Shown here: piece after piece, positions 1,504-60,907 of the stretch
Numbering within the stretch: position 1 is the first letter of the stretch
Layout: every line of letters starts with the position of its first letter
Source of the DNA: an uncultured Gammaproteobacteria bacterium
Lineage (GTDB): Bacteria > Patescibacteriota > Patescibacteriia > CAZSQN01
DNA length: 64,000 nt
Direction of reading: 5' to 3'
Assembly (NCBI GenBank): GCA_964609095.1
Contig: CAZSQN010000002.1
Coordinates: forward strand, 12,633-76,632
Position numbers and translations under genes: made by a program
The notes under the pieces: model-generated
Database searches by the model: none
The model's input: only the letters and a program-made list of their open reading frames with translations
What the model was told of the DNA's origin: nothing

Positions 1504-1621
1504 CCTTTTTCCTCTCTTTGTCAAAGAACATACCAATTTGACCACAAATTAAGCAAAGTGTCAAATTAAAAGCCCTCCAAGGTTAATCGGAGGGCGTACT
1601 TCATGAATCTTGTGAAACGGC

Positions 1622-2701: not shown

Positions 2702-2814
2702 TGGCTTTCTCCTTTCTGGAGTTGTATTTTGGCTTATTTCAAGTTAAAAGAGCATATTTCAAAATATCACAAAATAGACGATTCGTCAATGATTTGGTAT
2801 TATTGTGAAATCCT

Positions 2815-4089
2815 ATGAATAATTTATCTGCCGCCGATCCGCAAATTGCTTCCTCTATTACCAATGAACTGGAGCGCCAGCGGGACGGACTTGAAATGAT
2901 CCCGTCTGAAAATTTTGTGTCTCCGGCCGTTTTGGAAGCGCTTGGCTCCGTATTAACCAATAAATATTCCGAAGGGTATCCGGGCAAAAGATATTATGGC
3001 GGAAACGAATTTATTGACGAAATAGAGACATTGGCGCGAGAACGGGCTAAAAAATTATTTGGCGTCTCTCACGCCAATGTCCAGCCGTATTCCGGCTCTC
3101 CGGCAAACCAAGCCGCCTGTTTTGCCTTGCTTGAACCCGGAGAAAAATTAATGGGTTTGCATTTAAGCTATGGCGGACACTTGACGCACGGCTGGAAGGT
3201 TAATTTTTCAGGAAAGTATTACGAGGCGGTGCAATATATTACCGGGGCCGACGGCTGGCTTGATTATGACGCGCTTGCCAAACAAGTTAGCGAAGAGAAG
3301 CCAAAACTTCTTTTTGTCGGCGCGACCGCTTATCCGCGCATTTTTGATTGGGAAAAACTCTCACAAATTGCCAAATCTGTTGACGCTTATATGGTCGCGG
3401 ATATTTCCCACATTGCCGGACTTATTGTTGCCGGAGCGCATCCGTCACCGGTCGGCTTTGCCGATGTGATTACCACCACCACGCACAAGACCTTGCGCGG
3501 CCCGCGCGGCGCCATGATTCTCTGCAATGGCGAACCGTCAGAGCCGATGAAAGCCCCGCCCGAGAAATCACGGAAATATCTGCCGACAATGATAGACCGC
3601 GCTGTTTTCCCCGGACTTCAAGGCGGGCCGCATAACCACCAAACCGCCGCCATTGCCGTAGCGCTAAAAGAAGCTGCCGAACCAGCTTTCAAAAATTACG
3701 GCGAGCAGATTGTCAAAAATGCCAAAACCCTTGCCGAAAAATTGCTTGAACACGGCTTTAATCTGGTAACCGGCGGAACCGACAACCACCTTTTGCTGAT
3801 TGATTTGCAAAACAAGAACATAACCGGGAGGCAAGCTTCTGACGCGCTGGAAGCGGCTGGAATTACGGCAAACAAAAATTCCATACCAAATGATCCGAAA
3901 AAACCTTATGACCCTTCAGGCATCCGCCTGGGCACTCCGGCGCTCACTACCAGAGGAATGAAGGAAGAAGAGATGAAACAAATCGGCGATTGGATAAATA
4001 AAGTGATAGAAAAACATAATAATGCGAGTATTCTTGCAAAAATCAAAGGCGAGATAAAAGAAATGACTAAAAAATTCCCAATATATTGA
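2815..4089 (+). CDS. glyA: serine hydroxymethyltransferase
   Basis: 424 aa; conserved SHMT blocks HLTHGWKVNFSGKYY and TTTTHKTLRGPRG (PLP-lysine region). Confidence 0.95.
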   Translation: MNNLSAADPQIASSITNELERQRDGLEMIPSENFVSPAVLEALGSVLTNKYSEGYPGKRYYGGNEFIDEIETLARERAKKLFGVSHANVQPYSGSPANQAACFALLEPGEKLMGLHLSYGGHLTHGWKVNFSGKYYEAVQYITGADGWLDYDALAKQVSEEKPKLLFVGATAYPRIFDWEKLSQIAKSVDAYMVADISHIAGLIVAGAHPSPVGFADVITTTTHKTLRGPRGAMILCNGEPSEPMKAPPEKSRKYLPTMIDRAVFPGLQGGPHNHQTAAIAVALKEAAEPAFKNYGEQIVKNAKTLAEKLLEHGFNLVTGGTDNHLLLIDLQNKNITGRQASDALEAAGITANKNSIPNDPKKPYDPSGIRLGTPALTTRGMKEEEMKQIGDWINKVIEKHNNASILAKIKGEIKEMTKKFPIY

Positions 4090-4152
4090 GGGTGCGGGGT
4101 CGGGGTACAGGGATAAAAAACCCTAAACCCCAAACCCTAAACCCCAAACCCT
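4089..4152. repeat. telomere-like intergenic element: G-rich block (GGGTGCGGGGTCGGGGTACAGGG) then (CCCTAAACCCCAAA)2
   Basis: heptamer CCCTAAA/TTTAGGG tandem units between glyA stop and folD start; the same repeat family recurs at 12961-13030, 47716-47803 and 60833-60907. Confidence 0.6.
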
Positions 4153-4153
4153 T

Positions 4154-4993
4154 GTGAAAATAATAGACGGCAAAAAACTCGCTTTGGAAATCAGAACTGA
4201 ATTAAAAGAAAAAATATCCAAACTCGGCCTCCAGCCGGGTCTTGCCGTTATTTTAGCCGGCGACGACCCTGCCAGCCATCTTTACGTGCGCTTAAAAGAA
4301 AAAGCCAGCGAGGAAGTCGGCATCCGCTTTGAAAAAAAGATATTTTCCGAATCCGCGACAGAGGAAGATATCAATTCAACAATTCAACAATTTAACAATC
4401 GTTCCGATATTCACGGAATTTTAGTCCAGCTTCCCCTGCCGCCAAAATTTGACGAAAACAAAATCATCAGAACGATTGACCCCAAAAAAGACGTGGACGG
4501 CTTCCATCCCAAAAACCTTGAGTTAATTAAAAACGGACACCCCTTTATAATCCCAGGTGTCACGCTCGGCATAATGCGGTTGATTGAATCCACGAAAGTT
4601 GACCTCAAAAATAAAAAAGCCGCACTTTTGGTAAATAGCGACATTTTTGCCTTGCCTCTCCGTCATCTGCTAAAAACAAAGGATGCAGAAGTTGAAACAT
4701 TCATTAAACCAAAAATTTCAGATTTCAGATTTCAGATTTCAGATTTTGATATTATCGTTATTGCTTTAGGCAAACCAAAATTTCTTAAATCTGAAATGGT
4801 TCGCGACGGCGCCATAATCATTGACGTCGGCACCACCAAAGTTGACGGAAAACTTTTTGGCGACGCCGACTTTGATTCATTTCAAAATCGCGATGTCTTT
4901 ATCACGCCCGTTCCCGGCGGAGTCGGGCCGATGACCGTGGCCATGCTCTTAAACAATGCGGTTCAGCTCGCGAGCGTTCGCGCGAGCTCATAG
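4154..4993 (+). CDS. folD: bifunctional methylenetetrahydrofolate dehydrogenase/cyclohydrolase
   Basis: GTG start; FolD blocks VILAGDDPASHLYVRLKEKA and PGGVGPMTVAMLL; contains an in-frame (TCAGATT)4 heptamer tandem repeat at 4721-4748 encoding ISDFRFQISDF. Confidence 0.9.
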   Translation: MKIIDGKKLALEIRTELKEKISKLGLQPGLAVILAGDDPASHLYVRLKEKASEEVGIRFEKKIFSESATEEDINSTIQQFNNRSDIHGILVQLPLPPKFDENKIIRTIDPKKDVDGFHPKNLELIKNGHPFIIPGVTLGIMRLIESTKVDLKNKKAALLVNSDIFALPLRHLLKTKDAEVETFIKPKISDFRFQISDFDIIVIALGKPKFLKSEMVRDGAIIIDVGTTKVDGKLFGDADFDSFQNRDVFITPVPGGVGPMTVAMLLNNAVQLASVRASS

Positions 4994-6111
4994 CCGGCTC
5001 CGGCGGCAAACAAAAAAACAATAAGCCATAAAACAAAACCGGGGATTTTTAAGCTAAACTCCGGTTTTCTTTTGCCCAACTTTATTGCCCGGCGATAGAT
5101 GAGCGCGATCAAAATCACGTCTATCGCTCCAAAAACCCCGCCGGTCACGCTGATTACATTTATAAAACTTCTGGCGCCGATAAGATACAGTCCTAAAGGA
5201 ATTCCCAAAGTTATGGCGCCGGCGATTTTTTTGGAAATCTTAAAATCGTATTCCAAAGTTTCTTTCGTGTATATTCCCAAAACCAAAAATGACGTGGCAA
5301 TGGCCAGGACGCCAAAGGCCGCGCCGGCAATAACAATGCCATAACCCAAAAAAGGATAAAGCCCTAAAATTGATTCTTCGCTTGCGAGTTTGCCCGAAAC
5401 GCCAAGAACAGACGAGGCAAAAACAGCGGTGATAAAAGCGGCAATCAATGACCCCCAAATAACAGCGGATCTAATTTTGCGGCTGTTCTTTTCTAAAATA
5501 TCCCGCGCCTCCGGAATCGCCGCCCATCCGGCTAAAGAAAAAATCAGCACGCCAAACGGCAAGAGCGCATCGGAAATATCTCCTTTAAGGAGAAAATTTT
5601 CAACTTTTACTTGAGGCGCGCCCATAATAACAATAAAAATGGCGGTTAAAAGGAGAAACCCCGTGAGAATCAGTTCAACTTTGGAAACGATTTTAAGCCC
5701 GGCAATCACCAAAACACCCATGACAAAAAAGAATAAAAGCTGGTAGCCGGTTTGCCCGAGAGGAATAATCGCGCCGGAGAGCTGCCAGAGAAACGCGCCT
5801 CCGATAATCATATAGGCAAGCAGGGCGCCCAGCGCTCCAAGCACATTTGAGGCAAAGGCCGCCCGCTCTCCTATTTTTCCAAGGTAAAGGCGAGCGAATC
5901 CGGCCAAACGGTGTTTGCCAACGGTACGAAGTATTATTTCGCCAAACATCAAATGAGCGATGATAATGAAGACGGAAATCGCCGCGAGTTCCGCAATTCC
6001 GATAAAAAACCCCGACTTGCTCCAGCTAAAAGCAACGCCGAAAATCCCGGCTCCCACGATAAAACCGGCAACGGTGGCAATAGCGCGAAAATAAGCGCGA
6101 TCAATCTTCAT
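4963..6111 (-). CDS. polytopic membrane transporter, amino-acid permease-like (about 10 TM segments)
   Basis: 382 aa, highly hydrophobic, with a glycine-rich VAGFIVGAGIFGV helix typical of amino-acid/aromatic permeases; family assignment is tentative. Confidence 0.5.
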   Translation of the reverse strand: MKIDRAYFRAIATVAGFIVGAGIFGVAFSWSKSGFFIGIAELAAISVFIIIAHLMFGEIILRTVGKHRLAGFARLYLGKIGERAAFASNVLGALGALLAYMIIGGAFLWQLSGAIIPLGQTGYQLLFFFVMGVLVIAGLKIVSKVELILTGFLLLTAIFIVIMGAPQVKVENFLLKGDISDALLPFGVLIFSLAGWAAIPEARDILEKNSRKIRSAVIWGSLIAAFITAVFASSVLGVSGKLASEESILGLYPFLGYGIVIAGAAFGVLAIATSFLVLGIYTKETLEYDFKISKKIAGAITLGIPLGLYLIGARSFINVISVTGGVFGAIDVILIALIYRRAIKLGKRKPEFSLKIPGFVLWLIVFLFAAGAGYELARTLAS

Positions 6112-6194
6112 TTTTTTATTATATCAAATTACCCACAGTTGCTCCACAAAAAACTCTTGCCCAACCCTGGCGCGGAAGCGTAAAATATAGACGC

Positions 6195-6300
6195 TCATAA
6201 TGCAAATATCGCGAATGAATGCGAATACCACGAATATGCAAATACAGTATTCGCATATTCGCGTGATATTGGCATTAGATTCGCATTATTCGCATTATAT
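6195..6300. promoter_or_regulatory. ATTCGCAT/ATGCGAAT repeat block with imperfect palindrome centred near 6247, immediately upstream of dnaB
   Basis: the 27-bp element TATTCGCATATTCGCGTGATATTGGCAT at 6248-6275 is also present in reverse complement at 39857-39883 upstream of msrB; tandem ATTCGCATT units run up to the dnaB ATG. Confidence 0.4.
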
Positions 6301-6303
6301 TTT

Positions 6304-7659
6304 ATGGAAAAACTCACTCCCCAAAATCTTGAAGCCGAAATGTCGCTTTTGGGCTCGCTTCTTTTGGATAAAGACGCGATGATTAAAATTGCCGACATCG
6401 TGCACAGCGAAGATTTTTACAAAGACAGCCACAGGATAATCTTTGATTCAATCATTGAACTGTACGGAAAACACGAGCCCATTGACCTCTTGTCTTTGGG
6501 AAACAAGCTTGGCGAACGGGGCAAACTGGAAGTTGTTGGCGGCCGCACTTATCTGGCCGAACTTGCCAACGCGGTGCCGACCTCATCGCACGCCAAGCAT
6601 TATGCCGAGATTGTGCAAAAAAAGGCCTCTTTGCGGCGGCTCATCAATGTCTCGGCGGAAATCGCCGAACTTGGATTTACGGAATCGGAGGATGTGGAGC
6701 GACTTCTGGATTCGGCCGAACAAAAACTTTTCGGCGTGTCGCAAAAATACCTGCGCCAGATTTTTATGCCTATCAGAAACGTGCTGGAAGAGGCATTTGA
6801 ACGGATTGACGTGCTTCACCGCGAAAAGGGCAAGCTCCGCGGCATCCCCACCGGCTTTCAGGACTTGGATGATCTTTTGGCGGGAATGCAAAAATCGGAT
6901 TTGATTATTTTAGCCGCGCGGCCGTCAGTGGGCAAAACAAGCTTGGCGCTGGATGTGGCGCGGCACGTGGGCACAAAGGCGAAAAAGGCCGTCGGCATAT
7001 TTTCGCTGGAAATGAGCCGCGACCAGCTGGTTGACCGCCTTATCTGCGCGGAATCAGGCGTCAATCTCTGGAATATGAGAACCGGCAACCTTTCCGACGA
7101 GCCGGGCAACAACGAATTTGAGCGGGTGGGACACGCCTTGGGAACGCTCTCCGAAGCGCCGATTTTTATTGACGATTCCCCCAACGCCAATATTATAGAA
7201 ATCCGCACCAAAGCCCGCCGCCTGCAAATGGAATACGGCTTGGATCTCCTGATAGTGGATTATCTTCAATTGATGGAATCGCGTTCAAAAATAGAAAGCA
7301 GGGTGCAGGAAGTGGCGGAAATCACCCGCGCGCTTAAGGGCATCGCGCGCGAGCTTAACATCCCGGTTCTTGCGCTTTCCCAGCTCTCTCGCGCGGTGGA
7401 GATGAGCAAGCCGGCCATTCCCAAACTGGCCCACTTGCGCGAATCCGGCTCCATTGAACAAGACGCAGATGTGGTCATGTTTATCTACCGCAAAGCCGCC
7501 GACGGGGGATACAGCCGCGAAGACCTTGGCCCGGAAGAAAAGAACCTGGCCGAAATCTATATTGCCAAGCACAGAAACGGCCCGACCGGTTTGGTTAAAT
7601 TGTATTTTGACGAAGCCAAGACAAGCTTCCGCGATCTTGAAACAAGATACCAAACATAA
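6304..7659 (+). CDS. dnaB: replicative DNA helicase
   Basis: 451 aa; DnaB N-terminal domain; Walker A ARPSVGKTSLALDVA; RecA-like C-terminal domain. Confidence 0.95.
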   Translation: MEKLTPQNLEAEMSLLGSLLLDKDAMIKIADIVHSEDFYKDSHRIIFDSIIELYGKHEPIDLLSLGNKLGERGKLEVVGGRTYLAELANAVPTSSHAKHYAEIVQKKASLRRLINVSAEIAELGFTESEDVERLLDSAEQKLFGVSQKYLRQIFMPIRNVLEEAFERIDVLHREKGKLRGIPTGFQDLDDLLAGMQKSDLIILAARPSVGKTSLALDVARHVGTKAKKAVGIFSLEMSRDQLVDRLICAESGVNLWNMRTGNLSDEPGNNEFERVGHALGTLSEAPIFIDDSPNANIIEIRTKARRLQMEYGLDLLIVDYLQLMESRSKIESRVQEVAEITRALKGIARELNIPVLALSQLSRAVEMSKPAIPKLAHLRESGSIEQDADVVMFIYRKAADGGYSREDLGPEEKNLAEIYIAKHRNGPTGLVKLYFDEAKTSFRDLETRYQT

Positions 7660-7663
7660 CGCC

Positions 7664-8266: not shown

Positions 8267-8293
8267 ATCCCCCGATTTTGTCGGGGGATTTTT
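8265..8293. terminator. bidirectional terminator AAATCCCCCGA-tttt-GTCGGGGGATTTTT
   Basis: 8-bp GC-rich stem with A-run/T-run between convergent recR and rplU. Confidence 0.6.
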
Positions 8294-8303
8294 GCGGCTC
8301 GTT

Positions 8304-8624: not shown

Positions 8625-8680
8625 ATTTTTAAGCTTATAGTTTACAGCTTACAACTTATAAATTATTTGTCAACCCCGCA

Positions 8681-9166: not shown

Positions 9167-10205
9167 TAATTGACAAGGCGGCTAAAAAAATAACGGCTAA
9201 TAAAATAATGACAATCATCTTCCATCCGGTTCCCAAAAACCAGCTTGCGCCGCCAAAACCGGCCGCGAATAAATAATAAAACATTACCGCTTGGCGCTCC
9301 GACAAGCCGGCGTCAATCAGGCGAAAATGCAAATGTTCTCTTCCGCTTTCGGTTATTTTTTTTCCGCTTCTCCATCTTTTTATAATAACGGTCGCCACAT
9401 CAAGCACGGGCACGCCCATAACCAAAAGCGTGGTGGCGACTTTGGTGCCGGCGGCAATGGCCAGAGAGCCGATTAAAAACCCGGCGATAGTGCTTCCCCC
9501 CTCGCCCAAAAAAATGCGCGCCGGATGAAAATTCCAAAACAAAAATCCGGTAAAAACCGCGGCTAAAATCCCCGCGAGCATCGCCGTCTGCGGCTGGTTA
9601 AGCTCCGGCCGCAGAGCTATTGCCGCTATAAAAATAGCGGCAACGGCGGCTATGCCGGCAGAAAGCCCGTCCAAGCCGTCAAGAAGTTTTGTCGTGTAAA
9701 TCATTCCCAAAAGCCACAAAAATGAAAGGACATCGGCTGGCAACAAAAAATTCCAAATTCCAAATCCTAAATTCCAAATTCCAAGGTTTATGACTCCGCC
9801 AAACGGATTCTTAATTTCCGTAAAATGTATTCCACCGGCCACCGCAAGGCCGGCTGCCAAAATCGGAAAAATAATTTGTATTTTTGGCCGCAGATTAAAC
9901 TTGTCGTCTAAAATTCCGCCGGCAATTAAAATCGCGCCTCCGGCGGCAAGAGCCAAAAATTGTTTTAAATGAATATAACCGCTTGGGATAAATCCTTTGT
10001 AGAAAAGATAGGCCGCGATTCCGAAAAAAGATAAATAAATCGCCAAGCCGCCCAAGAGCGGTATTGCCCTTTCGTGTTTTTTCCTGCCGCCAAAATCAGG
10101 CGCGTCAACAAAACGCGCCCGAAGCGCCGCCTGCCTTATAAGCCCCGTCGCCCACAAGGAAAGTAAAACGGAAATTAAAAGTAAAAAAATTATATTTGAA
10201 CTCAT
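9138..10205 (-). CDS. glycosyltransferase family 4, MraY/WecA-type polyprenol-phosphate sugar-1-phosphate transferase
   Basis: start at the internal ATG giving MSSNIIF; VDAPDFGGRKKHERAIPLLGG, ILDD and LDGLDGLSAG motifs; contains an in-frame (ATTCCAA)5 heptamer repeat at 9746-9785 encoding IWNLGFGIWNF. Confidence 0.7.
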   Translation of the reverse strand: MSSNIIFLLLISVLLSLWATGLIRQAALRARFVDAPDFGGRKKHERAIPLLGGLAIYLSFFGIAAYLFYKGFIPSGYIHLKQFLALAAGGAILIAGGILDDKFNLRPKIQIIFPILAAGLAVAGGIHFTEIKNPFGGVINLGIWNLGFGIWNFLLPADVLSFLWLLGMIYTTKLLDGLDGLSAGIAAVAAIFIAAIALRPELNQPQTAMLAGILAAVFTGFLFWNFHPARIFLGEGGSTIAGFLIGSLAIAAGTKVATTLLVMGVPVLDVATVIIKRWRSGKKITESGREHLHFRLIDAGLSERQAVMFYYLFAAGFGGASWFLGTGWKMIVIILLAVIFLAALSIIEKRIKSRT

Positions 10206-10220
10206 ACAAGATTTCCACAA

Positions 10221-11113: not shown

Positions 11114-11117
11114 AAAA

Positions 11118-12892: not shown

Positions 12893-12960
12893 TAGTTTTT
12901 TCTCCTTTCAAAGAACGCCGCTACCGTACCAAAAACGGACGCGAGTGTCAAGGTTGGTTA

Positions 12961-13030
12961 AGCGTTTAGCGGTTAGCGTATAGCGTTTAGTTTTTACCCT
13001 AAACCCTAAATGCTAAACCCTATACCCTGC
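12961..13030. repeat. telomere-like intergenic element: (AGCGTTTAGCG)-type block then TTTTTACCCTAAACCCTAAATGCTAAACCCTATACCCTGC
   Basis: CCCTAAA heptamer units; same family as 4089-4152, 47716-47803, 60833-60907. Confidence 0.5.
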
Positions 13031-18097: not shown

Positions 18098-19435
18098 TTA
18101 AGGGATAAGCTTTCTTCTATGCGTTCGACGGTAGAAGGCAATCGCAAATCTGTGCGCTTCGTCGCGCACAGCCACTAAAATATCTTTAAATTGATTGGCA
18201 ACTCTGGCCATTTCCGGATTATCTTTAGGCAAAATAAGCTCATCCTTTTTCCTGTCTACGCCTTTGGCAATGCCAACAATAGGAATGCCCAGATGATATG
18301 CTTCCAATACTTTCTTAGCCGCGTTAACTTGCGGAACTCCCCCGTCAATTAAAATTATTTCCGGCAATTCCCAGCCGGCACCGCGATGGGCAAAACGCCG
18401 CGTTAGCACCTCGCGAAGCATGGCCGTATCATTAGCGCTTTTTACGGTTTTAATTCTGAATTTGCGGTATTGGGATTTATCCGGCTCCCCGCCCGAAAAT
18501 ACTACCATGCTTCCGACTGCAGAAGTTCCGGAAATATTGGAAATATCATAACCCTCAATGCGGCCGTAGATATTAATGATATTCGCTTCTCCGCCTGCGG
18601 CGGACCAACCGTAGGTTGGCGCATCTCTCGTCAGCGCGGAAATATCCCGTATATTCTCCAGGGCGTAAAGGCGATTTCTTATTTTTGCCGCGTCCTCAAA
18701 TCTTTCTTCTTTAACGGCTTTTGCCATTTCTTTTTTAAACCCGCGAATCACTTGTCCTTTTTTGCCTTCAAAAAATAAAATCAGCCCGCGGATATTTTTT
18801 TTATATTCTTTTGGGGAAATCGCGCCGACGCAGACCCCTGGGCATTTTTTAAGGTGATAATCAAAACATGGTTTAGAATTTAGAATTTGGAATTTGGAAT
18901 TTGGAATTTTTGGCGGTTCGCAATCGCTCCATGGGAAACTCTTGCGCAAGATATTCAAGGCGGCGCGGAGCGCGTTGGGGCTCAAAAACGGCCCGAAAAC
19001 ACGCTTGAATTTGGAATTTGGAATTTGGAATTTGTTTCGGATTTCGGATTTCGTGCTTCGGATTTGATGTAACTCGTGTCCTCTCATCAACAATAATTTC
19101 GGATATTTATCTTTTGTGATAACTAAGTAAATAAAGCTCCTGTCATCTTTTTGCAGCACATTATATTTGGGCCACAATTCTTTGATTTTTTCCGCTTCCA
19201 AAATTAAGGCCTCCACCACGGTTTTAACGCGGATATAATCAATTGACTTTATTTCTTTTATAAGCTCGTAAACTTTACCGTTTTGCGGACGAGAAAAGTA
19301 GCTGCCGACGCGCGTTCGGAGCATTGATGCCTTGCCAACGTAAATAACTTTGCCCGAACTGTCTTTCATCAGATAAACGCCCGGGCTTGCCGGCAAAATT
19401 GAATTTTTTATTTTGATGCTTTTGGGAATTGACAT
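18098..19435 (-). CDS. uvrC: excinuclease ABC subunit C, short form lacking the C-terminal (HhH)2 domain
   Basis: GIY-YIG GVYLMKDSSGKVIYVGKA; endonuclease-domain block LIDGGVPQVN...VRDEAHRFAIAF; protein ends about 20 aa after this; contains in-frame (GAATTTG)n and (TTCGGAT)n heptamer repeats encoding IPNSKFQILNSK. Confidence 0.85.
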   Translation of the reverse strand: MSIPKSIKIKNSILPASPGVYLMKDSSGKVIYVGKASMLRTRVGSYFSRPQNGKVYELIKEIKSIDYIRVKTVVEALILEAEKIKELWPKYNVLQKDDRSFIYLVITKDKYPKLLLMRGHELHQIRSTKSEIRNKFQIPNSKFKRVFGPFLSPNALRAALNILRKSFPWSDCEPPKIPNSKFQILNSKPCFDYHLKKCPGVCVGAISPKEYKKNIRGLILFFEGKKGQVIRGFKKEMAKAVKEERFEDAAKIRNRLYALENIRDISALTRDAPTYGWSAAGGEANIINIYGRIEGYDISNISGTSAVGSMVVFSGGEPDKSQYRKFRIKTVKSANDTAMLREVLTRRFAHRGAGWELPEIILIDGGVPQVNAAKKVLEAYHLGIPIVGIAKGVDRKKDELILPKDNPEMARVANQFKDILVAVRDEAHRFAIAFYRRTHRRKLIP

Positions 19436-20390: not shown

Positions 20391-23039
20391 TTATTTCAAA
20401 ACTTTTTTTAAATATCCTCCCGTATAAGAGTTCGCGTTCCGCGCCACTTCTTCCGGAGTTCCAACGGCCACCACTTCTCCGCCGCGAAGCCCGCCCTCCG
20501 GCCCAAGGTCAATAATGTAATCGCTGCATTTTATAACATCCAGATTGTGTTCAATCACCAGCACGGTGTTTCCGGCTTTAACCAATCTTTCCAAAACTTC
20601 AATTAATTTTTTCACATCGTCGTAATGCAATCCGACGGTCGGCTCGTCCAAAAGATACAACGTTCTGCCCGTGCTTCTCCTCGCGAGCTCGGCGCCAAGC
20701 TTAATCCTTTGCGCCTCTCCGCCGGAGAGAGTGGTCGCGCTCTGCCCCAGCTCCAGATAATCCAGTCCCACCTCGCGCAAAATCTTCAGCCGCTGATAAA
20801 TAAAAGGGATATCGCGGAAAAATTCCGCCGCTTCTTCAACGGTCATTTTCAGCGCGTCATAAATTGTTTTGCCTTTATACGCAATTTCCAATGTTTCGTT
20901 GGCAAATCGTTTCCCTTTGCAAATATCGCATTTCACGTAAACCGTCGGCAAAAAATGCATTTCTATGGCAATAGTCCCGTTTCCTTCGCAGTGCTCGCAG
21001 CGCCCGCCGGCCACATTGAAAGAAAATCTCCCCACCTTCCATCCGCGCATACGCGCCTCAGGAGTGGCGGCAAACAATTCCCGGATATAAGTCCAGGCGC
21101 CGGTATAGGTTGCCGGATTGCTCCGCGGGGTGCGGCCGATGGGCGATTGGTCAATGACTATCACTTTATCAAGAAAGTCCAGCCCGGAAATTGATTTATG
21201 CTTGCCCGCGCGATAACTGGTTCCGTTTATTTTATTGGAGGCGGCGTTAAAAAGCACATCGTTCATCAAGCTGGATTTGCCCGAACCGGAGACACCGGTA
21301 ATAGAGATAAGCCGCCGCAAAGGAATCTCCACGTCAATTTTCTTTAAATTGTTTTCCTCCGCGCCTGTTATCTTAATGCGCTCGCGGGAATGCTTGCGGC
21401 GGCTCTCCGGAACCGGAATTTTTTTCTTGCCCAAAAGATATTGAAGCGTGATCGAGTTAGCCACGTCCTTTTTGGAATCCAACAATTTGGGCATATCGCC
21501 TATCGCCACGATTGATCCGCCGTGCGCGCCGGCGCCGGGACCGATATCCACCAGATAATCCGCCGCCGAAATAGTATCTTCATCATGCTCCACGACGATG
21601 ATTGTGTTCCCTAACCCTCTTAAATGCTCCAATGTTTCAATGAGCCGGGCATTATCTCGCTGGTGCAGACCGATGGTGGGTTCGTCCAGCACGTAGAGAG
21701 CGCCGGTAAGCCGCGAACCAACTTGCGAGGCCAAACGAATTCTCTGCGCTTCGCCGCCGGAGAGCGTGCCGGCGGCGCGATCCAAAGTAAGATAATCCAA
21801 TCCCACATCCAACATGAATTTAAGACGATTTTTTATTTCTCGAATTGCCGGTTCGGCGATTTCAAATTCCGTAGCGGCGAGCTTTTGCTCCAATCCGGAA
21901 ATAAAACCGTGCGCTTCATCAATTGTAAGCGAAACAAGGTCAACGATATTTTTCTCCATAATTTTGACCGACAGCGATTCATCGCGCAAACGAAGTCCGC
22001 GGCACTTGGGGCACGGTTCATCGATAAAAAATGATTCTTTGCCCAAGCCGTGGCAGAGTTCACAAGCGCCATAAGGGCTGTTAAAGGAGAAAAGGCGCGG
22101 CTCAATTTCCGGAAAAGCAAATCCGTCATCGGGACAAGAAAATTTCGCTGACATAATCTGTTCCTCGCCATTTTCATAAACAACTGTTACCGCGCCATTG
22201 CCATGCTTTAAGCCGTTTTCTATTGCTTCAACCAAATGAGTTCTAAACGGCTTATTCCCCTCTATCGGCCAGCCAATCGGAACTTTATCAACCTCAAGCT
22301 CAATGGTATGCGCCTTATAGCGCGAGAGCGTGATGCGCTCGGATAAATTTTTTAATTTGCCGTCAACGCGCACCTGGCTGTAGCCGGAATTATAAAAATC
22401 ATAAAGCATCTGATAATACTCCCCTTTTCTGCCGCGCACGACAGGGGCGAGAACAACAATCGAGTTGAGAGTTGAAAGTTGAGAGTTGAGAGATTTTTTA
22501 GATTTTGTCCGCCGGCTGGCGGATTGAATTTGTTTCGGATTTCGGACCTGCCCCGTACCGAACTTGTTCTGGTGCGGGGTTTCGGATTTCGGATTTTCAT
22601 GAAGAGAAGTTATTCTCTTCACGATCGTCTCCGCCATCTCATCTACTGTCATTTTTCTAATCGGCTTGCCGCAGCGGACGCAATGAGGCCGCCCGACGCG
22701 GGCGAAAAGCACGCGCAAATAATCGTAAATCTCCGTGATTGTGGCCACGGTTGAACGCGGATTGGACGAATGCGCCTTTTGGTCTATGGAAATCGCCGGC
22801 GATAATCCTTCTATCTCGTCAACATCCGGCTTATCCATTCCGCCCAAAAATTGGCGGGCATAGGCGGAGAGCGACTCCACATATCTTCTCTGCCCTTCGG
22901 CAAAAATGGTGTCAAACGCCAAGCTGGACTTGCCGCTTCCGGATAGCCCCGTGAAAACTATAAGTTTATTTCTTGGCAGCTCAAGCGATATGTTCTTTAA
23001 ATTGTGTTCGCGGGCTCCTTTGATGATTATTTTGTCCAT
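20391..23039 (-). CDS. uvrA: excinuclease ABC subunit A
   Basis: start at [17 protein letters not shown] (the upstream 19 aa of the ORF translate a heptamer repeat); two ABC ATPase modules, [14 protein letters not shown] and [12 protein letters not shown], with zinc fingers; in-frame (GAGTTGA)n/(TTCGGAT)n repeats at 22462-22600. Confidence 0.95.
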
Positions 23040-23184
23040 AAAAATTTTAAACTCAAAATCCGAAGCCCGAAATCCGAAACAAATCCCAATGACCAAAATT
23101 CAAAGGTTCAAAACGTTTTGAAAATTTGAGAATTATGATTTTAAGCATTGTTTCGAGTTTCGAATTTAGATATTCGGATTTATA

Positions 23185-47714: not shown

Positions 47715-47715
47715 T

Positions 47716-47803
47716 AGTTTAGGGTTTAGGGTTTAGGGTTTAGGGTTTAGTTTTCTAAATCACTATACCCTCTACCCTGTCCCCTATACCCTCAATAAAT
47801 TGC
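47716..47803. repeat. telomere-like palindromic element: (GGGTTTA)5 - spacer - (CCCT[AC]TA)4
   Basis: G-rich half GTTTAGGGTTTAGGGTTTAGGGTTTAGGGTTTAG and C-rich half CTATACCCTCTACCCTGTCCCCTATACCCTC can pair through GGG:CCC tracts; located between two co-directional minus-strand genes. Confidence 0.6.
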
Positions 47804-49106
47804 TTATTTCCTCGCGGGCGATTGTACGGTCATCCCAGGGAATCTTTCTTCCTTCAGCCAAAACCATTACCTGCTCGCTGCCCTTGCCCGTGATTAGGAC
47901 AATATCGCCTTCGGCCGCCGTTTGAATCGCTTTGCCAATTGCCGCCCGCCTGTCTAAAATCACAAAAAGGTTTTCGCCGGTTTTTTTGCCGGCCTCCTCC
48001 GCTCCGGCCGCGACTTCTTTGGCAATTAAAAGCGGGTCATCGTCATAAGGATCGTCGGTGGTCACAATCACAATATCAACATTTTCTCCGGCCAGAAGCC
48101 CGAGAATGCGCCGCCTGCTCACATCCCTACCTCCGCCGGTAGAGCCAAAAACCTGAATCAATCTTTTGCGCGGCAATAACTTAATTGTTTCATAGAGCTG
48201 GCGGGTTGATTCCGGTTCATGCGCGTAATCAACAATAACGGTAAAATTTTGTCCCGCTCTCACAAATTCCATCCGTCCGGCAATCGTATTTATCTCGGCT
48301 AGAACATCCGCCGCCACAGATATCCGAATGCCTTGCGAAGCTGCCGCCGTTATAGCCGCCAGCGCGTTATAAACATTGCCCCTGCCTATCAATTTCAAAT
48401 TTATATCCATACCATCAATTTTGAATCTTGAGCCATCCGGACTCAACTCCACATCTTCCGCCAAAAAAGCTTTTAGCTTATAGCTTATAGCTTTTAGCTT
48501 CATGCCATATCCGTATTGCTCATCCGCCCAAAAATTAAGAAAATATTCCGCGTTTTCATCGTCCAAATTGGCAACAATAATCTTTTTGCCGTTCCCGACT
48601 TTTTTCTTCGCGCTCTCTTTAAGAGAAGCAAATAATTTTCCTTTTGCTTTCTTATAATTCTCAAACCCTCCGTGCGATTCTATATGTTCCGGCGTCAGAT
48701 TGGTAAAAACGGCGACATCATAATCAATGCCTGCGTGCCGCGATTGCGCCAAGCCCTCGGAAGATGACTCCACGATGGCGTAAGAGCAACCGGCGACAAC
48801 CATCTCGCGGAGCATTTTTTGCAAAGCAAACCGGCCGAGCATGGTCATTTTGGTGGCGTTCAGCCATTCGCGTCCGGCGATTTTGAAAATGGCGGTTGAA
48901 GAAAGCCCAACTTTATATCCGGCATCCTCCAGAATTTTGGCGAGCATATAAGCGGTCGTGGACTTTCCCTTGGTGCCGGTAATCCCGATGACAATCATCT
49001 TACGCGAGGGATGGCCGTACCAAAGGGACGCACTCAGAGCCAAAAACAAATGATAAACGGTCAAAAAACCGCGAGGAAGAATCTTTTTCACCAGTTTCTT
49101 TAGCAT
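47784..49106 (-). CDS. murE: Mur ligase, UDP-MurNAc-tripeptide ligase (MurE-like), with N-terminal TM helix in place of the usual N-domain
   Basis: GITGTKGKSTTAYMLAKIL P-loop, DYAHEPES and GRMEF blocks; short hydrophobic N-terminus; in-frame (AGCTTAT)n heptamer repeat at 48478-48510 encoding KLKAISYKLKA. Confidence 0.7.
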   Translation of the reverse strand: MLKKLVKKILPRGFLTVYHLFLALSASLWYGHPSRKMIVIGITGTKGKSTTAYMLAKILEDAGYKVGLSSTAIFKIAGREWLNATKMTMLGRFALQKMLREMVVAGCSYAIVESSSEGLAQSRHAGIDYDVAVFTNLTPEHIESHGGFENYKKAKGKLFASLKESAKKKVGNGKKIIVANLDDENAEYFLNFWADEQYGYGMKLKAISYKLKAFLAEDVELSPDGSRFKIDGMDINLKLIGRGNVYNALAAITAAASQGIRISVAADVLAEINTIAGRMEFVRAGQNFTVIVDYAHEPESTRQLYETIKLLPRKRLIQVFGSTGGGRDVSRRRILGLLAGENVDIVIVTTDDPYDDDPLLIAKEVAAGAEEAGKKTGENLFVILDRRAAIGKAIQTAAEGDIVLITGKGSEQVMVLAEGRKIPWDDRTIAREEISNLLRV

Positions 49107-49182: not shown

Positions 49183-50607
49183 TTACTTCAGCTTCTTTAC
49201 CTCTTTTACAAACTGCTCTCCCCTATCAAACTCGTTTTGAAAAAGTCCAAAACTGGCAGCCGCCGGGGAGAGAAGAACAACATCCCCTTTTTTGGCGAAT
49301 TTTATTGCGCAACGCACCGCGCGAGCCATATCAGCCGCTTCTTCATAAGGCATTTTTAAGAATTTTTTGATTTTATCGGTCGCGCCTCCGGGCAAAAATA
49401 CAACCGATTTTGCGTATTTTTTAATTGCTAATGCAAGCTCGCTAAACTCCAACTTTTTATCCGACCCCCCGCAAATGAGAACAATCCGTCTTTTGGCTTT
49501 TAGCTTATAGCTTTTAGCTTTTAGCGTTTTAAGGGCGGCGATGGTCGCATCTGGCGTTGTCGCGGTTGTGTCATTTATAAATCTAATCCCCTTGATATTT
49601 CTAATCACTTCCATTCTATTCGGCAATCCTTTGAAATTTTTTAAAACTTTTTTAATGGCGGCATTTGATATTCCCATAATTTTTGCCGCGCAAACCGCGG
49701 AGAGCGCATTACCCAAATTGTGTTCTCCGGCAATAGCAGTATCTGAAACTGAAGCAACCGCCTCTTCTTCTCCGCCAAACCTAAAAATTATTTTTTTGTT
49801 CTTTGGAAAACATCCGTTCTCTTCTGAAAAAGGTTTTAACGAAAACCAAAATCTGCGGCTCGGCGCTCGCTTTCCCATCTCTCGTGTCCATTTATTATCA
49901 TAATTTAAAATCACCGCGTCTTCCGGCGATTGATATTTGTAAATCAGGGCTTTGGCCGCGGCATATTGCGCCATTCCTTTATAAGTATTCAGGTGGTCCC
50001 GCATTATATTGGTGATGACGGCTATATGCGGGCTTTTTTTAATTTCTTCCAAACCTTCGCATTGCCAGGAAGAAAGCTCCAAAACGGCTATTGAACCTTC
50101 GTGCATCTTGTCCAAAAAATTAAGGGGCGAACGGAGAATGTTCCCGCCGAGCTCTGCGTGCCTTTCTTTTGATTTCAGCATTTCATAAGCAAGCGCGCTG
50201 GTCGTGCTTTTGCCGCGCGTGCCCGTAACGCCAATAACAGCCCCCGGCATAAGAGCCAAAAAAATGCCGGTGTCGGATAAAATCTTCGCTCCGGCAGATC
50301 TCGCCGCCGCAAGATATGGAGAATTGGCCCGCGCGCCGGGATTTCGGATAACAATATCGGCGGATTTGAAATCGCTGGTTCGGTGACGACCCAAAATGAG
50401 CTTATAGCTTATAGCTTTTAACTTTTTAGCAAATCTTTTTAACTCGCTGATTTGTTTTTTTAATTCCTCTTCATTTTTAAGGTCAGTAATAGCCACTTCC
50501 GCTCCTTTGGAGCTAAAAAACTTAGCGGCGGAAATGCCGCTGCCTTCTTTATACAAACCCAATCCCATTATCACCACCTTTTTGCCTTTAAAATCGTCCA
50601 TGGTCAA
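49183..50607 (-). CDS. murD: UDP-N-acetylmuramoylalanine--D-glutamate ligase
   Basis: N-terminal Rossmann KKVVIMGLGLYKEGSG; GVTGTRGKSTT; two in-frame (AGCTTAT)n repeats at 49497-49530 and 50398-50430 each encoding LKAKSYKLKA/KLKAISYKL. Confidence 0.8.
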   Translation of the reverse strand: MTMDDFKGKKVVIMGLGLYKEGSGISAAKFFSSKGAEVAITDLKNEEELKKQISELKRFAKKLKAISYKLILGRHRTSDFKSADIVIRNPGARANSPYLAAARSAGAKILSDTGIFLALMPGAVIGVTGTRGKSTTSALAYEMLKSKERHAELGGNILRSPLNFLDKMHEGSIAVLELSSWQCEGLEEIKKSPHIAVITNIMRDHLNTYKGMAQYAAAKALIYKYQSPEDAVILNYDNKWTREMGKRAPSRRFWFSLKPFSEENGCFPKNKKIIFRFGGEEEAVASVSDTAIAGEHNLGNALSAVCAAKIMGISNAAIKKVLKNFKGLPNRMEVIRNIKGIRFINDTTATTPDATIAALKTLKAKSYKLKAKRRIVLICGGSDKKLEFSELALAIKKYAKSVVFLPGGATDKIKKFLKMPYEEAADMARAVRCAIKFAKKGDVVLLSPAAASFGLFQNEFDRGEQFVKEVKKLK

Positions 50608-60831: not shown

Positions 60832-60832
60832 A

Positions 60833-60907
60833 AAGGGTTTAGGGTATAGGGTTTAGGGTATAGGGTTATAAAAAACTATATCCCATACCCTATCCTCTAT
60901 ACCCTTT
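60833..60907. repeat. telomere-like palindromic element: (GGGTTTA/GGGTATA)5 - AAAAAACTATAT - (CCCATA/CCCTATA)3
   Basis: AAGGGTTTAGGGTATAGGGTTTAGGGTATAGGGTTAT ... CCCATACCCTATCCTCTATACCCTT between the murG start and ftsW stop; same family as 47716-47803. Confidence 0.6.

What the first reader, a model, noticed from the sequence alone, without database searches (positions are those of the whole stretch)
4721..4748. Period-7 tandem repeats inserted in frame inside conserved housekeeping genes
Short heptanucleotide tandem arrays occur within coding regions and keep the frame at three or more copies, giving 7-aa peptide repeats:
- (TCAGATT)4 in folD, encoding ISDFRFQISDF.
- (ATTCCAA)5 in the MraY-like gene at 9746-9785, encoding IWNLGFGIWNF.
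- (GAATTTG)3-4 and (TTCGGAT)n in uvrC at 18876-18905 and 19004-19068.
- (GAGTTGA)4 and (TTCGGAT)n in uvrA at 22462-22600, plus (ATCCGAA)n just upstream of its start at 23045-23080.
- (AGCTTAT)3-4 in the MurE-like gene at 48478-48510 and twice in murD at 49497-49530 and 50398-50430, encoding KLKAISYKLKA.

The same heptamer families recur in intergenic regions, including the GGGTTTA telomere-like arrays. Gain or loss of one unit would frameshift essential genes. Their persistence suggests either an active repeat-generating process or tolerated in-frame insertions at surface loops, which is unusual for core enzymes.
Basis: seen in the sequence. Interest (0 to 1): 0.65.

Follow-up and report, generated by a model that had tools for sequence, protein, structure and literature searches.

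The report
Dispersed 33-base heptamer blocks inside genes
A candidate-phylum (Uhrbacteria) genome is peppered with short blocks, about 33 bases long and built from 7-base repeats, that sit in frame in loops of essential enzymes and between genes. They look like copied miniature elements rather than ordinary slipping microsatellites.

Summary
The window holds 17 period-7 arrays: 10 inside folD, an MraY-like transferase, uvrC, uvrA, a MurE-like ligase and murD, and 7 between genes. Shuffles give none, and other periods give 0-1.

Arrays are 28-42 nt, about 4.4-5 units, and length differences from orthologs are multiples of 3, not of 7 or 21.

These arrays are not free-running microsatellites, for four reasons:
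- The units form one related family.
- Array lengths peak sharply at 30-34 nt, in genes and in spacers alike.
- Blocks with the same odd internal units recur at unrelated loci and in other genomes.
- Relatives carry arrays at the same protein loops but with other units from a shared repertoire.

TTTAGGG-type units carry stops on both strands and occur only between genes. There they form inverted pairs that fold as hairpins running from stop codon to start codon.

A separate 33-nt palindromic mini-element is nested in the uvrA array and occurs in at least 120 metagenome contigs, mostly inside ORFs.

Best reading: a family of miniature dispersed insertion modules, filtered by selection for frame, absence of stops and loop tolerance. 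This is a new variant of known heptamer-repeat systems (cyanobacterial STRR/SDR, Beggiatoa TAACTGA). What copies the blocks is unknown.

The parts
4715..4746 (+). folD array (ATTTCAG)4.6, encoding ISDFRFQISDF (residues 188-198)
   Evidence: Lies in a variable loop in alignment A1. Falls between strands E179-184 and E200-204 in the AF2 model. An identical 35-nt string occurs in the GT4 gene of L088.
9748..9784 (-). Array (GGAATTT on the sense strand)5.3 in the MraY-like glycosyltransferase-4 gene, encoding LGIWNLGFGIWNF
   Evidence: At the same site the L088 ortholog carries (ATTTCAG)n, encoding ISDFRFQISDF. A few residues longer than solved MraY there.
18872..18909 (-). uvrC site 2 array (TTCCAAA/TTCTAAA on the sense strand)5.4, encoding KIPNSKFQILNSK
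   Evidence: At the same site relatives L087 and L088 carry (TAACTCT)n, and L089 is 6 codons shorter.
19007..19065 (-). uvrC site 1 composite block, sense strand (AAATCCG, AAGCACG, AAATCCG, AAATCCG, AAACAAA)(TTCCAAA)3-4, encoding QIRSTKSEIRNKFQIPNSKF
   Evidence: The junction 15-mer AAATCCGAAACAAAT occurs 3 times in the window against 0.03 expected. About 60 nt align with the uvrA leader copy and with L087 uvrB.
22462..22492 (-). uvrA array (TCAACTC on the sense strand)4.4, encoding [11 protein letters not shown]
   Evidence: The orthologous L087 array has the same unit. Lies in the segment of about 54 residues that corresponds to about 8 in Thermotoga UvrA.
22521..22598 (-). uvrA (AAATCCG)n array split by a nested element. 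Left part 22579-22598, right part 22521-22545 including AAATCCGAAACAAAT.
   Evidence: Removing the nested 33 nt restores a continuous heptamer register.
22546..22578 (-). 33-nt palindromic mini-element CCCGCACCAGAACAAGTTCGGTACGGGGCAGGT nested in the uvrA array, in frame
   Evidence: At least 120 metagenome stretches carry it. Boundaries are sharp and positions 8/13 covary. Of 94 copies, 61 are sense-oriented inside long ORFs. Excising exactly 33 nt restores the 7-nt register in 9 copies.
23052..23181 (-). uvrA leader: inverted heptamer arms (left 23150-23181, AAATCCG type; right 23052-23080, TTTCGGA type) that fold as a long hairpin ending about 18 nt before the ATG at 23033
   Evidence: (-31.5 kcal/mol, z = -2.25).
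48468..48500 (-). MurE-like ligase array, sense-strand units CTAAAAG/CTATAAG mixed, encoding KLKAISYKLKA
   Evidence: Every TAA falls in frame 1 or 2. The L081 ortholog has (TTCCAAT)4.6 at the same site.
49490..49531 (-). murD array 2 (CTAAAAG/CTATAAG), encoding LKTLKAKSYKLKAKR
   Evidence: +8 aa against solved MurD.
50399..50426 (-). murD array 1 (same unit pair), encoding KLKAISYKL
   Evidence: +8 aa against solved MurD. Comparing the printed sequences, it shares a 22-nt string with the MurE-like array.
4088..4153 (+). glyA-folD spacer hairpin. The G-rich arm (4088-4114) starts in the glyA stop codon. The C-rich arm (AAACCCT/AAACCCC)5 (4120-4153) ends at the folD GTG.
   Evidence: (-30.7 kcal/mol, z = -2.8). 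Same architecture in relative L081.
12956..13028 (-). Hairpin downstream of the clpB-like gene: arms (AGGGTTT)5 and (CTAAACG)5
   Evidence: -30.6 kcal/mol, z = -3.1. L087 has an AAACCCT-type array directly after its clpB.
47715..47793 (-). Hairpin between the MurE-like ligase and the next gene (bPH_2 domain). The G-arm overlaps the last codons of the ligase. The C-arm (CTAAACC)5 ends 2 nt before the ATG at 47714.
   Evidence: (-30.3 kcal/mol, z = -3.9).
60832..60905 (-). ftsW-murG hairpin. The G-arm overlaps the ftsW stop. The C-arm (ACCCTAT/ACCCTAA)5 ends at the murG ATG (60831).
   Evidence: (-26.6 kcal/mol, z = -4.3).

Best explanation
The window comes from a Candidatus Uhrbacteria (Patescibacteria) genome that carries a family of miniature dispersed modules. 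Each module is about 30-35 nt long and is built of 4.4-5 copies of a 7-nt unit. The units belong to one related family, roughly AAA followed by pyrimidines on one strand.

Shown:
- The modules have a characteristic total length.
- Their units are related to each other.
- Blocks with the same irregular internal units occur at unrelated loci and in other genomes.
- They occupy the same variable protein loops in relatives, but with different units of the shared repertoire.
- Units that carry stop codons on both strands (TTTAGGG/CCCTAAA) occur only between genes.
- Genic arrays use stop-free units, or mix two unit variants so that no TAA falls in frame.

Inferred: whole blocks are copied from array to array, or into new sites. 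The copying could be ectopic templated repair or gene conversion between arrays, or an unidentified trans-acting activity. Local slippage plays only a minor role. Purifying selection then keeps only copies whose net length change is a multiple of three, that lack in-frame stops, and that fall in tolerant surface loops. The G-poor strand usually ends up as the sense strand, so the peptide is hydrophilic.

Between co-directional genes the modules occur as inverted pairs that fold into hairpins. These start at the upstream stop codon and end within 0-2 nt of the downstream start codon in three of the four gene-to-gene spacers. Whether these hairpins act on mRNA stability or on translation start, or are simply tolerated, is not shown.
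For: 1. Period 7 is specifically enriched.

2. The units form a family. Mean pairwise rotational/strand distance is 2.45, against 3.24 +/- 0.12 for random window heptamers (0 of 1000). Mean nearest distance is 0.41 against 1.69. The repertoire is shared with relatives.

3. Blocks are copied:
- The 15-mer AAATCCGAAACAAAT occurs 3 times in the window (uvrC, uvrA, uvrA leader in inverted orientation) against 0.03 expected, and again in L087 uvrB.
- About 60 nt align across these copies, including the shared odd unit AAGC[A/C]CG. That odd unit also appears in an argF-argG spacer of another contig.
- An identical 35-nt string, A(ATTTCAG)4ATTTTG, is found in window folD and in the GT4 gene of L088.
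- A CCTAATT block with the same internal CCAAATT unit is found in L084 folD and L088 uvrB.

4. Lengths peak. Near-perfect period-7 arrays have a chance peak at 15-21 nt and a second peak at 30-34 nt (28 arrays). Only 8 arrays fall at 22-29 nt and 5 above 34 nt. The mode is the same inside and outside ORFs, although genic arrays cannot change by single units.

5. Relatives have arrays at the same loops with different units: folD, uvrC sites 1 and 2 and uvrA, MurE-like and GT4, uvrB.

6. Stop codons partition the units. All AAACCCT-type arrays are intergenic. Seven of 10 genic consensus units are stop-free on the sense strand. The other three arrays interleave CTAAAAG and CTATAAG so that TAA falls only in frames 1 and 2.

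7. Orientation is biased. Across 78 genic arrays the sense strand is A 43, T 28, C 21, G 8 %, with C>G in 54 arrays and G>C in 19.

8. The arrays lie in loops.
Against: - No enzyme that could move such blocks was found in the 64-kb window. It contains only a DGR reverse transcriptase with its own template and target.
- No clean empty-versus-filled site with target duplication was found. Every compared site is an indel-prone loop.
- For perfectly regular arrays, identity between loci follows trivially from the same unit and the same length. Only the irregular blocks are strong evidence for copying.
- The length peak could instead reflect a length-dependent balance of slippage, or a constraint on hairpin arm length.
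- TRF's score threshold under-detects short imperfect arrays. I limited this bias by using arrays with >=90% matches.
- Only the 64-kb window, about 76 kb of close relatives and 745 kb of selected metagenome contigs were examined, not a whole genome.
Confidence: 0.6

Rival explanations
1. Ordinary long simple-sequence repeats. Each array arose where it is by chance duplication of 7 nt and grew by polymerase slippage, as proposed in general for bacterial heptamer excess. Selection removed out-of-frame alleles.
For: - Heptamers are the most over-represented long SSR class in many bacteria, and slippage tied to the polymerase footprint has been proposed (Mrazek et al. 2007, as summarised in PMC4692102 and PMC4679880).
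- The arrays sit in indel-prone loops.
- One relative shows an expanded 8-unit arm (L081).
- In a Lentimicrobiaceae locus, arrays reach 16-26 copies.
Against: - Units born locally should be unrelated to each other, but they form one family.
- Irregular blocks are shared between unrelated loci and genomes.
- Lengths peak at 30-34 nt rather than decaying.
- Genic arrays cannot grow by single 7-nt steps without lethal frameshifts, yet they have the same size as intergenic arrays.
Confidence: 0.2
2. The arrays are functional elements selected at each site: protein-binding or RNA-structural signals between genes, and useful flexible linkers within proteins.
For: - The four co-directional spacers have the same layout: G-rich arm first, C-rich arm next to the start codon. 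All fold better than shuffles.
- The glyA-folD element keeps its place and its last unit in a relative with 76% FolD identity.
- TAACTGA heptamer repeats in Beggiatoaceae sit just upstream of start codons, and a post-transcriptional regulator was proposed for them.
Against: - The unit sequence at a given protein loop is not conserved between relatives.
- In L081 the arms of the glyA-folD element no longer match well (-20.9 kcal/mol over 101 nt).
- The peptides are low-complexity and differ by reading frame.
- No Rfam family matches.
- Function between genes would not explain the genic copies.
Confidence: 0.12
3. Contingency (phase-variation) loci: gain or loss of units switches the genes on and off.
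For: A 7-nt unit would frameshift a gene. Heptanucleotide phase-variable repeats are known in Haemophilus (titles listed).
Against: - The genes are single-copy core functions (folD, murD, uvrA and others), not surface or restriction genes.
- The arrays lie mid-gene.
- Three independent assemblies of one relative are identical through their arrays.
- Every ORF examined is intact in all relatives.
Confidence: 0.03
4. Assembly or sequencing artefact, or true telomere-type repeats.
For: TTTAGGG is the plant-type telomere unit. Short repeats can be mis-assembled.
Against: - The arrays keep long ORFs intact.
- They recur at the same sites in independent assemblies from NCBI, ENA and Logan.
- The TTTAGGG arrays are internal, about 5 units long, and paired with an inverted partner between genes.
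Confidence: 0.01

Closest known systems
Cyanobacterial short tandemly repeated repetitive (STRR) heptanucleotides and the G-rich heptamers of Nostoc and Xanthomonas (Mazel et al. 1990, from my own knowledge; Rehm et al. 2015, PMC4692102)
   Same: - Tandem 7-nt units, a few unit families dispersed over the genome.
- Strong period-7 excess; G-rich strand capable of quadruplex formation.
- Some arrays occur as inverted pairs.
- Position between the same genes is conserved, while length and sequence vary between relatives.
   Different: - Those repeats are described as intergenic; here 10 of 17 lie inside core genes.
- Different phylum (Patescibacteria) and different units.
- A tight length mode of 30-34 nt.
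- Irregular blocks shared between unrelated loci.
TAACTGA heptamer direct repeats of Beggiatoaceae, some Cyanobacteria and Bacteroidetes (MacGregor 2015, PMC4679880)
   Same: - 2-6 copies, usually within a few nucleotides upstream of a start codon and often without a Shine-Dalgarno sequence.
- The forward unit has stops in all three frames, which restricts it to spacers.
- A minority lie in ORFs in the stop-free orientation.
- Mobility is suspected, with no mechanism known.
   Different: - A single unit there, against a family of units here.
- ORF copies there are mostly at protein ends or in hypothetical proteins; here they lie mid-gene in conserved enzymes.
- No inverted-pair hairpin architecture is described there, apart from one indirect repeat.
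Small dispersed repeats (SDR) of Nostoc punctiforme (Elhai et al. 2008, Genome Res 18:1484). Its existence is confirmed from the reference list in PMC3116915. The paper could not be read, so the details are from memory.
   Same: - Very small (21-27 nt) hairpin-capable dispersed elements.
- As I recall, often nested in tandem heptameric repeats and sometimes inside genes.
- This parallels the 33-nt palindromic element nested in the uvrA, L086 folD and other heptamer arrays.
   Different: - 33 nt here; different sequence and phylum.
- Only about 9 of 100 copies lie in clear heptamer arrays.
- Relationship to SDR was not tested at sequence level.
Rickettsia palindromic elements (RPE; summarised in PMC10969869)
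   Same: Selfish palindromic repeats inserted in frame into unrelated metabolic genes, adding a peptide segment compatible with protein fold.
   Different: - RPEs are about 100-150 bp and not heptamer-periodic.
- The present modules are about 33 nt.
REPINs / REP elements mobilised by RAYT transposases (PMC3116915)
   Same: Inverted doublets forming hairpins in short spacers between genes; many copies per genome.
   Different: - The arms here are tandem heptamers, not a fixed REP sequence.
- No RAYT gene is seen in the window.
- Genic copies are common here.
Tandem repeats of Borg elements that create disordered protein regions (PMC9879509, listed)
   Same: Fast-evolving, lineage-specific perfect tandem repeats inside ORFs that add low-complexity peptide segments.
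   Different: As far as I know, Borg in-ORF repeats have unit lengths divisible by three. Here the unit is 7 nt and all three frames are read in turn.

Membership tests
Heptanucleotide long simple-sequence repeats / STRR-type arrays | Head-to-tail copies of a 7-nt unit, three or more copies | tested here: met
   TRF finds 17 arrays of 2.4-5.9 copies, 13 of them with >=4 copies.
Heptanucleotide long simple-sequence repeats / STRR-type arrays | Genome-level excess of period 7 over neighbouring periods | tested here: met
   9 arrays against 0 in shuffles; 0-1 for periods 4-15. The same holds in relatives and in 745 kb of related contigs. Whole genome not available.
Heptanucleotide long simple-sequence repeats / STRR-type arrays | A few unit families dispersed at many loci | tested here: met
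   Units are significantly related. Canonical units are shared between loci and genomes.
Heptanucleotide long simple-sequence repeats / STRR-type arrays | Predominantly intergenic location | tested here: not met
   10 of 17 window arrays, and 78 of 137 arrays in related contigs, lie in long ORFs.
Heptanucleotide long simple-sequence repeats / STRR-type arrays | Copy number varying freely by slippage (broad length distribution) | tested here: not met
   Second length mode at 30-34 nt, with few shorter or longer arrays. Read-level variation could not be tested.
TAACTGA-type start-codon-proximal heptamer repeats | Direct repeats ending within a few nucleotides of a start codon | tested here: met
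   The C-rich arms end 0-2 nt before the folD, 47714 and murG start codons. The same is seen in L081.
TAACTGA-type start-codon-proximal heptamer repeats | Unit sequence TAACTGA | tested here: not met
   Units here are AAACCCT, AAATCCG, AAATTCC, ATTTCAG, TCAACTC and CTAAAAG.
Phase-variable contingency loci | Repeat-number heterogeneity switching the gene between in-frame and out-of-frame | tested here: inconclusive
   Three assemblies of one relative are identical and all ORFs are intact. No reads were available.
Phase-variable contingency loci | Located in surface, restriction or virulence genes, typically near the 5' end | tested here: not met
   Located mid-gene in folD, uvrA, uvrC, murD and a MurE-like ligase.
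REPIN / REP | Inverted doublet forming a hairpin in intergenic space | tested here: met
   Five spacer hairpins, -26.6 to -31.5 kcal/mol, z = -2.25 to -4.3.
REPIN / REP | Cognate RAYT (IS200/IS605-like) transposase in the genome | not testable with these tools
   None among the window ORFs scanned. The rest of the genome is not held.
In-frame selfish palindromic elements (RPE-like), for the nested 33-nt element | Dispersed copies with sharp boundaries and a conserved palindrome | tested here: met
   100 unique contexts. Conservation begins abruptly at CCCC and ends near +28. The inner stem covaries A-T/G-C.
In-frame selfish palindromic elements (RPE-like), for the nested 33-nt element | Insertion inside ORFs without breaking the frame | tested here: met
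   33 nt long and stop-free in all six frames. 61 of 94 copies are sense-oriented inside ORFs >=450 nt, using all three frames.
In-frame selfish palindromic elements (RPE-like), for the nested 33-nt element | Size of roughly 100-150 bp | tested here: not met
   33 nt.

The most novel reading that the evidence does not exclude
An as yet unidentified activity installs pre-formed modules of about 33 nt into DNA, including inside essential genes. The modules are either heptamer-periodic or the palindromic CCCCGCACC...GGGGCAGG element. These would be among the smallest mobile elements known. They would be widespread in Patescibacteria and some other uncultured lineages, and would be a steady source of new protein loops. 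The shared length of about 33 nt and the sense-strand bias of both element types would then reflect one common insertion mechanism.
Probability: 0.2. Interest if true: 0.8.

Novelty: new variant of a known kind. Interest (0 to 1): 0.58.

Why it matters
Excess of heptamer repeats in bacteria has been noted since 1990 and has never been explained. This lineage offers a sharper handle on the problem.
- The arrays have a fixed module size.
- Irregular blocks can be traced from locus to locus.
- More than half of the copies lie inside genes, where single-unit slippage is forbidden.

Together these separate 'copying of blocks' from 'slippage in place'.

The finding also shows a route by which tiny selfish repeats remodel surface loops of essential enzymes in bacteria with very small genomes.

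There is a practical warning as well. Such segments inflate divergence in alignments and can be mistaken for meaningful insertions.

The nested 33-nt palindromic element occurs in at least 120 metagenome contigs, mostly sense-oriented inside ORFs. It deserves a study of its own.

Tried and rejected
- **Telomere reading of TTTAGGG.** Rejected. The arrays are internal, five units long, and paired with an inverted arm between genes.
- **Frame kept by three copies (21 nt).** Rejected. Lengths and ortholog differences do not fit.
- **Coiled-coil heptads as a protein-level reason for 7-aa periodicity.** Rejected. Only about 1.5 periods are present, and they form a low-confidence loop in the model.
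- **Link to the reverse transcriptase at 56926-58332.** It is a standard diversity-generating retroelement with its own adenine-mutated template/variable pair. Nothing ties it to the heptamers.
- **Arrays replacing a Shine-Dalgarno sequence.** Not informative. Only 14 of 55 genes have an SD-like core at all.
- **Copy-number heterogeneity.** The only multi-assembly case (L081, L082, L083) was identical throughout.
- **Known RNA families.** Only four tRNAs reach threshold.
- **Transposase or RAYT in the window.** None found.
- **Clean empty site with target duplication.** uvrC site 2 and uvrB gave no such site. All compared sites are indel-prone loops.
- **Specificity of the 33-nt element for heptamer arrays.** Only 6-9 of 100 copies lie in arrays.
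- **Literature.** No held paper links heptamer repeats with CPR/Patescibacteria. Elhai et al. 2008 could not be read.
- **GTDB genome scan with FolD.** It returned no close relative, best 49% identity. Close relatives came from the protein searches instead.
Full report
**1. Observation**

The folD array at 4715-4746 is a perfect (ATTTCAG)4.6.

The excess is specific to period 7.
- There are 9 arrays at score >=14, against none in 20 Markov-1 shuffles, and 0-1 arrays for any other period from 4 to 15.
- Exact runs of three or more copies exist only for period 7 among periods 5-15.
- In 1.32 Mb around folD in 80 other bacteria there were only 18 such arrays, 14 of them in three loci.

Pfam confirms the genes: folD, a glycosyltransferase-4/MraY-like gene, uvrC, uvrA, a MurE-like ligase and murD.

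The organism is a Candidatus Uhrbacteria bacterium (Patescibacteria). This follows from the source names of its UvrC and of FolD relatives.

**2. The genic arrays are lineage-specific loop segments, but the '3 x 7 = 21' logic is wrong**

- FolD residues 188-198 lie in a variable stretch of the alignment of 20 relatives. In a confident AlphaFold model (mean pLDDT 94.7) they fall between strands 179-184 and 200-204, the least confident part of the protein.
- In UvrA both arrays lie in a segment of about 54 residues that corresponds to about 8 residues in Thermotoga UvrA.
- Both murD arrays are +8 residues against a solved MurD.
- The uvrC arrays lie between the GIY-YIG and the UvrBC-binding regions.

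Array lengths are 28-42 nt. Differences from close orthologs are +12 nt (folD loop), and +27 and +18 nt (uvrC). The frame is kept because the net change is a multiple of three, not because three units were added.

**3. Relatives have arrays at the same loops, with other units**

Codon-level alignments with syntenic loci from five relatives (65-76% protein identity) gave the following.

| Site | Window | Relatives |
|---|---|---|
| folD loop | ATTTCAG | CTAAACC/CTCTACC (L081); CTAATTC (L084); CTACAAG (L086) |
| uvrC site 1 | AAATCCG + TTCCAAA | AAATCCT (L088); AAATCTC/AAACCTC (L089) |
| uvrC site 2 | TTCCAAA | TAACTCT (L087, L088); 6 codons shorter (L089) |
| MurE-like loop | CTAAAAG/CTATAAG | TTCCAAT (L081) |
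| GT4 loop | GGAATTT | ATTTCAG (L088) |
| uvrB | no array | one or two modules (L087, L088) |

The loop of L081 FolD has the ancestral length and yet is made of heptamers. Arrays can therefore overwrite a loop without lengthening it.

**4. These are not free-running microsatellites**

Four results point to discrete, copied modules.

(a) *The units are one family.* Mean pairwise distance, taken over rotations and strands, is 2.45. Random heptamers from the window give 3.24 +/- 0.12 (0 of 1000 as low). Mean nearest distance is 0.41 against 1.69. Nearly all canonical units read AA(A/C) followed by pyrimidines, and the same units recur in relatives at other loci.

(b) *Irregular blocks are shared between unrelated loci.*
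- The junction 15-mer AAATCCGAAACAAAT occurs three times in the window: uvrC, uvrA, and inverted in the uvrA leader. The expectation is 0.03. It occurs once more in L087 uvrB.
- About 60 nt align across these copies, including the shared odd unit AAGC[A/C]CG.
- The same odd-unit block lies in an argF-argG spacer of an unrelated metagenome contig.
- Window folD and the GT4 gene of L088 share an identical 35-nt string, A(ATTTCAG)4ATTTTG.
- L084 folD and L088 uvrB share a CCTAATT block with the same internal CCAAATT unit.

(c) *Length is characteristic.* Among 108 near-perfect period-7 arrays from relatives and related contigs there is a chance peak at 15-21 nt and a second peak at 30-34 nt (28 arrays). 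Only 8 arrays fall at 22-29 nt and 5 above 34 nt. Periods 6, 8 and 9 lack this second mode, although the few long arrays of periods 8 and 9 are also about 26-35 nt. Genic and non-genic arrays have the same mode, even though genic arrays cannot drift by single units.

(d) *Stop codons partition the units.* CCCTAAA/TTTAGGG has stops on both strands, a property of 13% of heptamers, and all arrays of this type are intergenic. Seven of ten genic consensus units are stop-free on the sense strand. The three MurE-like/murD arrays interleave CTAAAAG and CTATAAG so that each TAA falls in frame 1 or 2 and never in frame 0.

Orientation is also biased. Across 78 genic arrays the sense strand is A 43, T 28, C 21, G 8 %, which encodes hydrophilic K/N/S/P/Q/I-rich peptides. 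The membrane protein GT4 carries the opposite strand and a hydrophobic peptide.

**5. Intergenic copies are inverted pairs**

Four spacers have the same layout: glyA-folD, downstream of the clpB-like gene, MurE-like to the next gene, and ftsW-murG. Each has a G-rich arm of 4-5 units beginning in or just after the upstream stop codon, an A/T loop, and a C-rich arm of 5 units. In three of the four, the C-rich arm ends 0-2 nt before the next start codon.

These spacers and the uvrA leader fold at -26.6 to -31.5 kcal/mol, with z = -2.25 to -4.3 against shuffles. The glyA-folD element is in the same place in relative L081, with the same last unit before the GTG. There its arms have become unequal and the fold is weaker.

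A role in mRNA stability or translation start is possible but not shown. SD-like cores precede only 14 of 55 genes, so their absence here means little.

**6. A second miniature element**

Inside the uvrA array lies a 33-nt palindrome, CCCGCACCAGAACAAGTTCGGTACGGGGCAGGT (22546-22578). Removing exactly these 33 nt restores the heptamer register.

- The same element interrupts the heptamer array in L086 folD and lies in L084 murB.
- In 100 unique contexts conservation starts abruptly at CCCC and ends near +28. Positions 8 and 13 covary A-T/G-C.
- It has no stop in any of the six frames. Of 94 copies, 61 lie in sense orientation inside ORFs of 450 nt or more, and 11 in antisense orientation.
- Excising 33 nt restores a 7-nt register in 9 copies. 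Excising 30-32, 34 or 35 nt does so in 0-1 copies. An 8-copy signal at 36 nt is probably a low-complexity effect.
- Contigs carrying this element again show period 7 as the dominant repeat period.

**7. Mechanism**

I commit to the following reading. The arrays are a family of miniature dispersed modules of about 33 nt with heptamer periodicity. Whole blocks are copied between arrays or into new sites, and slippage is secondary. Selection then filters the copies for frame, absence of in-frame stops, and loop tolerance.

- Shown: family relatedness, shared irregular blocks, the length mode, the stop partition, and loop location.
- Inferred: the copying step itself.

Ectopic templated repair or conversion between arrays is the most economical version. 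It explains persistent sites with changing units. A dedicated insertion activity is the more novel version. No candidate enzyme is present in the window.

Still unexplained: why the period is 7, why the total length is about 32-33 nt, and what seeds arrays at new sites.

**8. Comparison with what is known**

- Heptamer excess is long known from cyanobacterial STRR, Xanthomonas and Nostoc G-rich heptamers, and Mrazek's survey.
- The closest described system is the TAACTGA repeats of Beggiatoaceae. These lie next to start codons, are excluded from ORFs in the orientation that carries stops, and occasionally sit inside ORFs. Their mobility is suspected but unexplained.
- The nested palindrome recalls the small dispersed repeats of Nostoc (Elhai et al. 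2008; cited, not readable, details from memory) and the in-frame Rickettsia palindromic elements.

New here are the phylum, the majority of copies inside core genes, the fixed module length, the traceable irregular blocks, and the stop-to-start inverted-pair layout. No held paper connects heptamer repeats with CPR bacteria. That is absence in a limited library, not proof of novelty.

**9. Limits**

Only 64 kb of this genome, about 76 kb of close relatives and 745 kb of contigs selected for carrying the 33-nt element were examined. ORF calls in the metagenome contigs were naive stop-to-stop spans. No reads were available.

Noticed in passing
window 22546-22578 (-); also L086 600-632, L084 about 850-882, and L090-L209: A 33-nt palindromic mini-element, CCCCGCACCAGARCAAGYTCGGTACGGGGCARG. 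It has sharp boundaries and a covarying inner stem, and lacks stops in all six frames. It is present in at least 120 metagenome contigs. 61 of 94 copies lie sense-oriented inside long ORFs. Subsets are embedded in two larger conserved repeats (...GGGCGAGG.AGCGAGC[element]TAAACTCCGCGAG... and ...CCAACCCCCTTC[element]ACTTCGCTTTTTGCCCGCCCGA).
   Followed up: partly
window 56926-59628 (-): A complete diversity-generating retroelement. The reverse transcriptase is at 56926-58332 (RVT_1, LGxxxSQ motif). The template repeat is at 58443-58560. The variable repeat (58914-59031) is at the 3' end of ORF 58900-59628. Every mismatch is at a template adenine.
   Followed up: yes
window 54813-54863 and 54952-55002: A perfect 51-nt direct repeat, 139 nt apart. 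The second copy overlaps the 3' part of tRNA-Lys (54985-55059). It looks like the duplicated attachment site of an integrated element next to the retroelement region.
   Followed up: no
window 11146-11868, 11923-12666, 26143-26928 (-): Three paralogous genes share the N-terminus MDAPYRNDEVAKLLAENEKLREQ (or a close variant). Their C-terminal region ends ...GSYTLSA(R/T); one of the three was scanned and gave a weak, sub-threshold PPC (pre-peptidase C-terminal) match. Unlike most housekeeping genes here, two of them have strong Shine-Dalgarno sequences.
   Followed up: no
window 20391-23033 (-): UvrA lacks the roughly 115-residue insertion domain present in Thermotoga UvrA (residues 304-420). UvrC is short (445 aa) and ends right after the RNase H-like endonuclease domain (last Pfam match to residue 432), about 150 residues shorter than UvrC of well-studied bacteria (from memory), where helix-hairpin-helix motifs follow.
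   Followed up: no
window 36000-38000: A low-GC island (GC 0.34, against 0.45-0.51 elsewhere) with unannotated ORFs. It is followed by a RhuM/Fic-domain gene (38414-39406) and a PD-(D/E)XK nuclease gene (39886-40272). Probably acquired DNA.
   Followed up: no
window 6197-6301 and 25188-25235: Other short tandem repeats in spacers upstream of dnaB and near the uvrB start. Periods are 19, 11 and 8 (for example ATATTCGCATT x4.5). They are not part of the heptamer family.
   Followed up: no
L070 (Lentimicrobiaceae MAG) 980-4141; L008 (gammaproteobacterial MAG) 7036-20497; L007 (Patescibacteria) 6061-20810: Heptamer arrays also abound in a few unrelated lineages. In L070 they expand to 8-26 copies, like classical microsatellites. 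In L008 and L007 many are again about 31-33 nt long.
   Followed up: partly
window, upstream of all 55 larger genes: Only 14 of 55 genes have a Shine-Dalgarno-like core. These are mostly hypothetical or accessory genes. Most housekeeping genes have A/T-rich leaders.
   Followed up: partly
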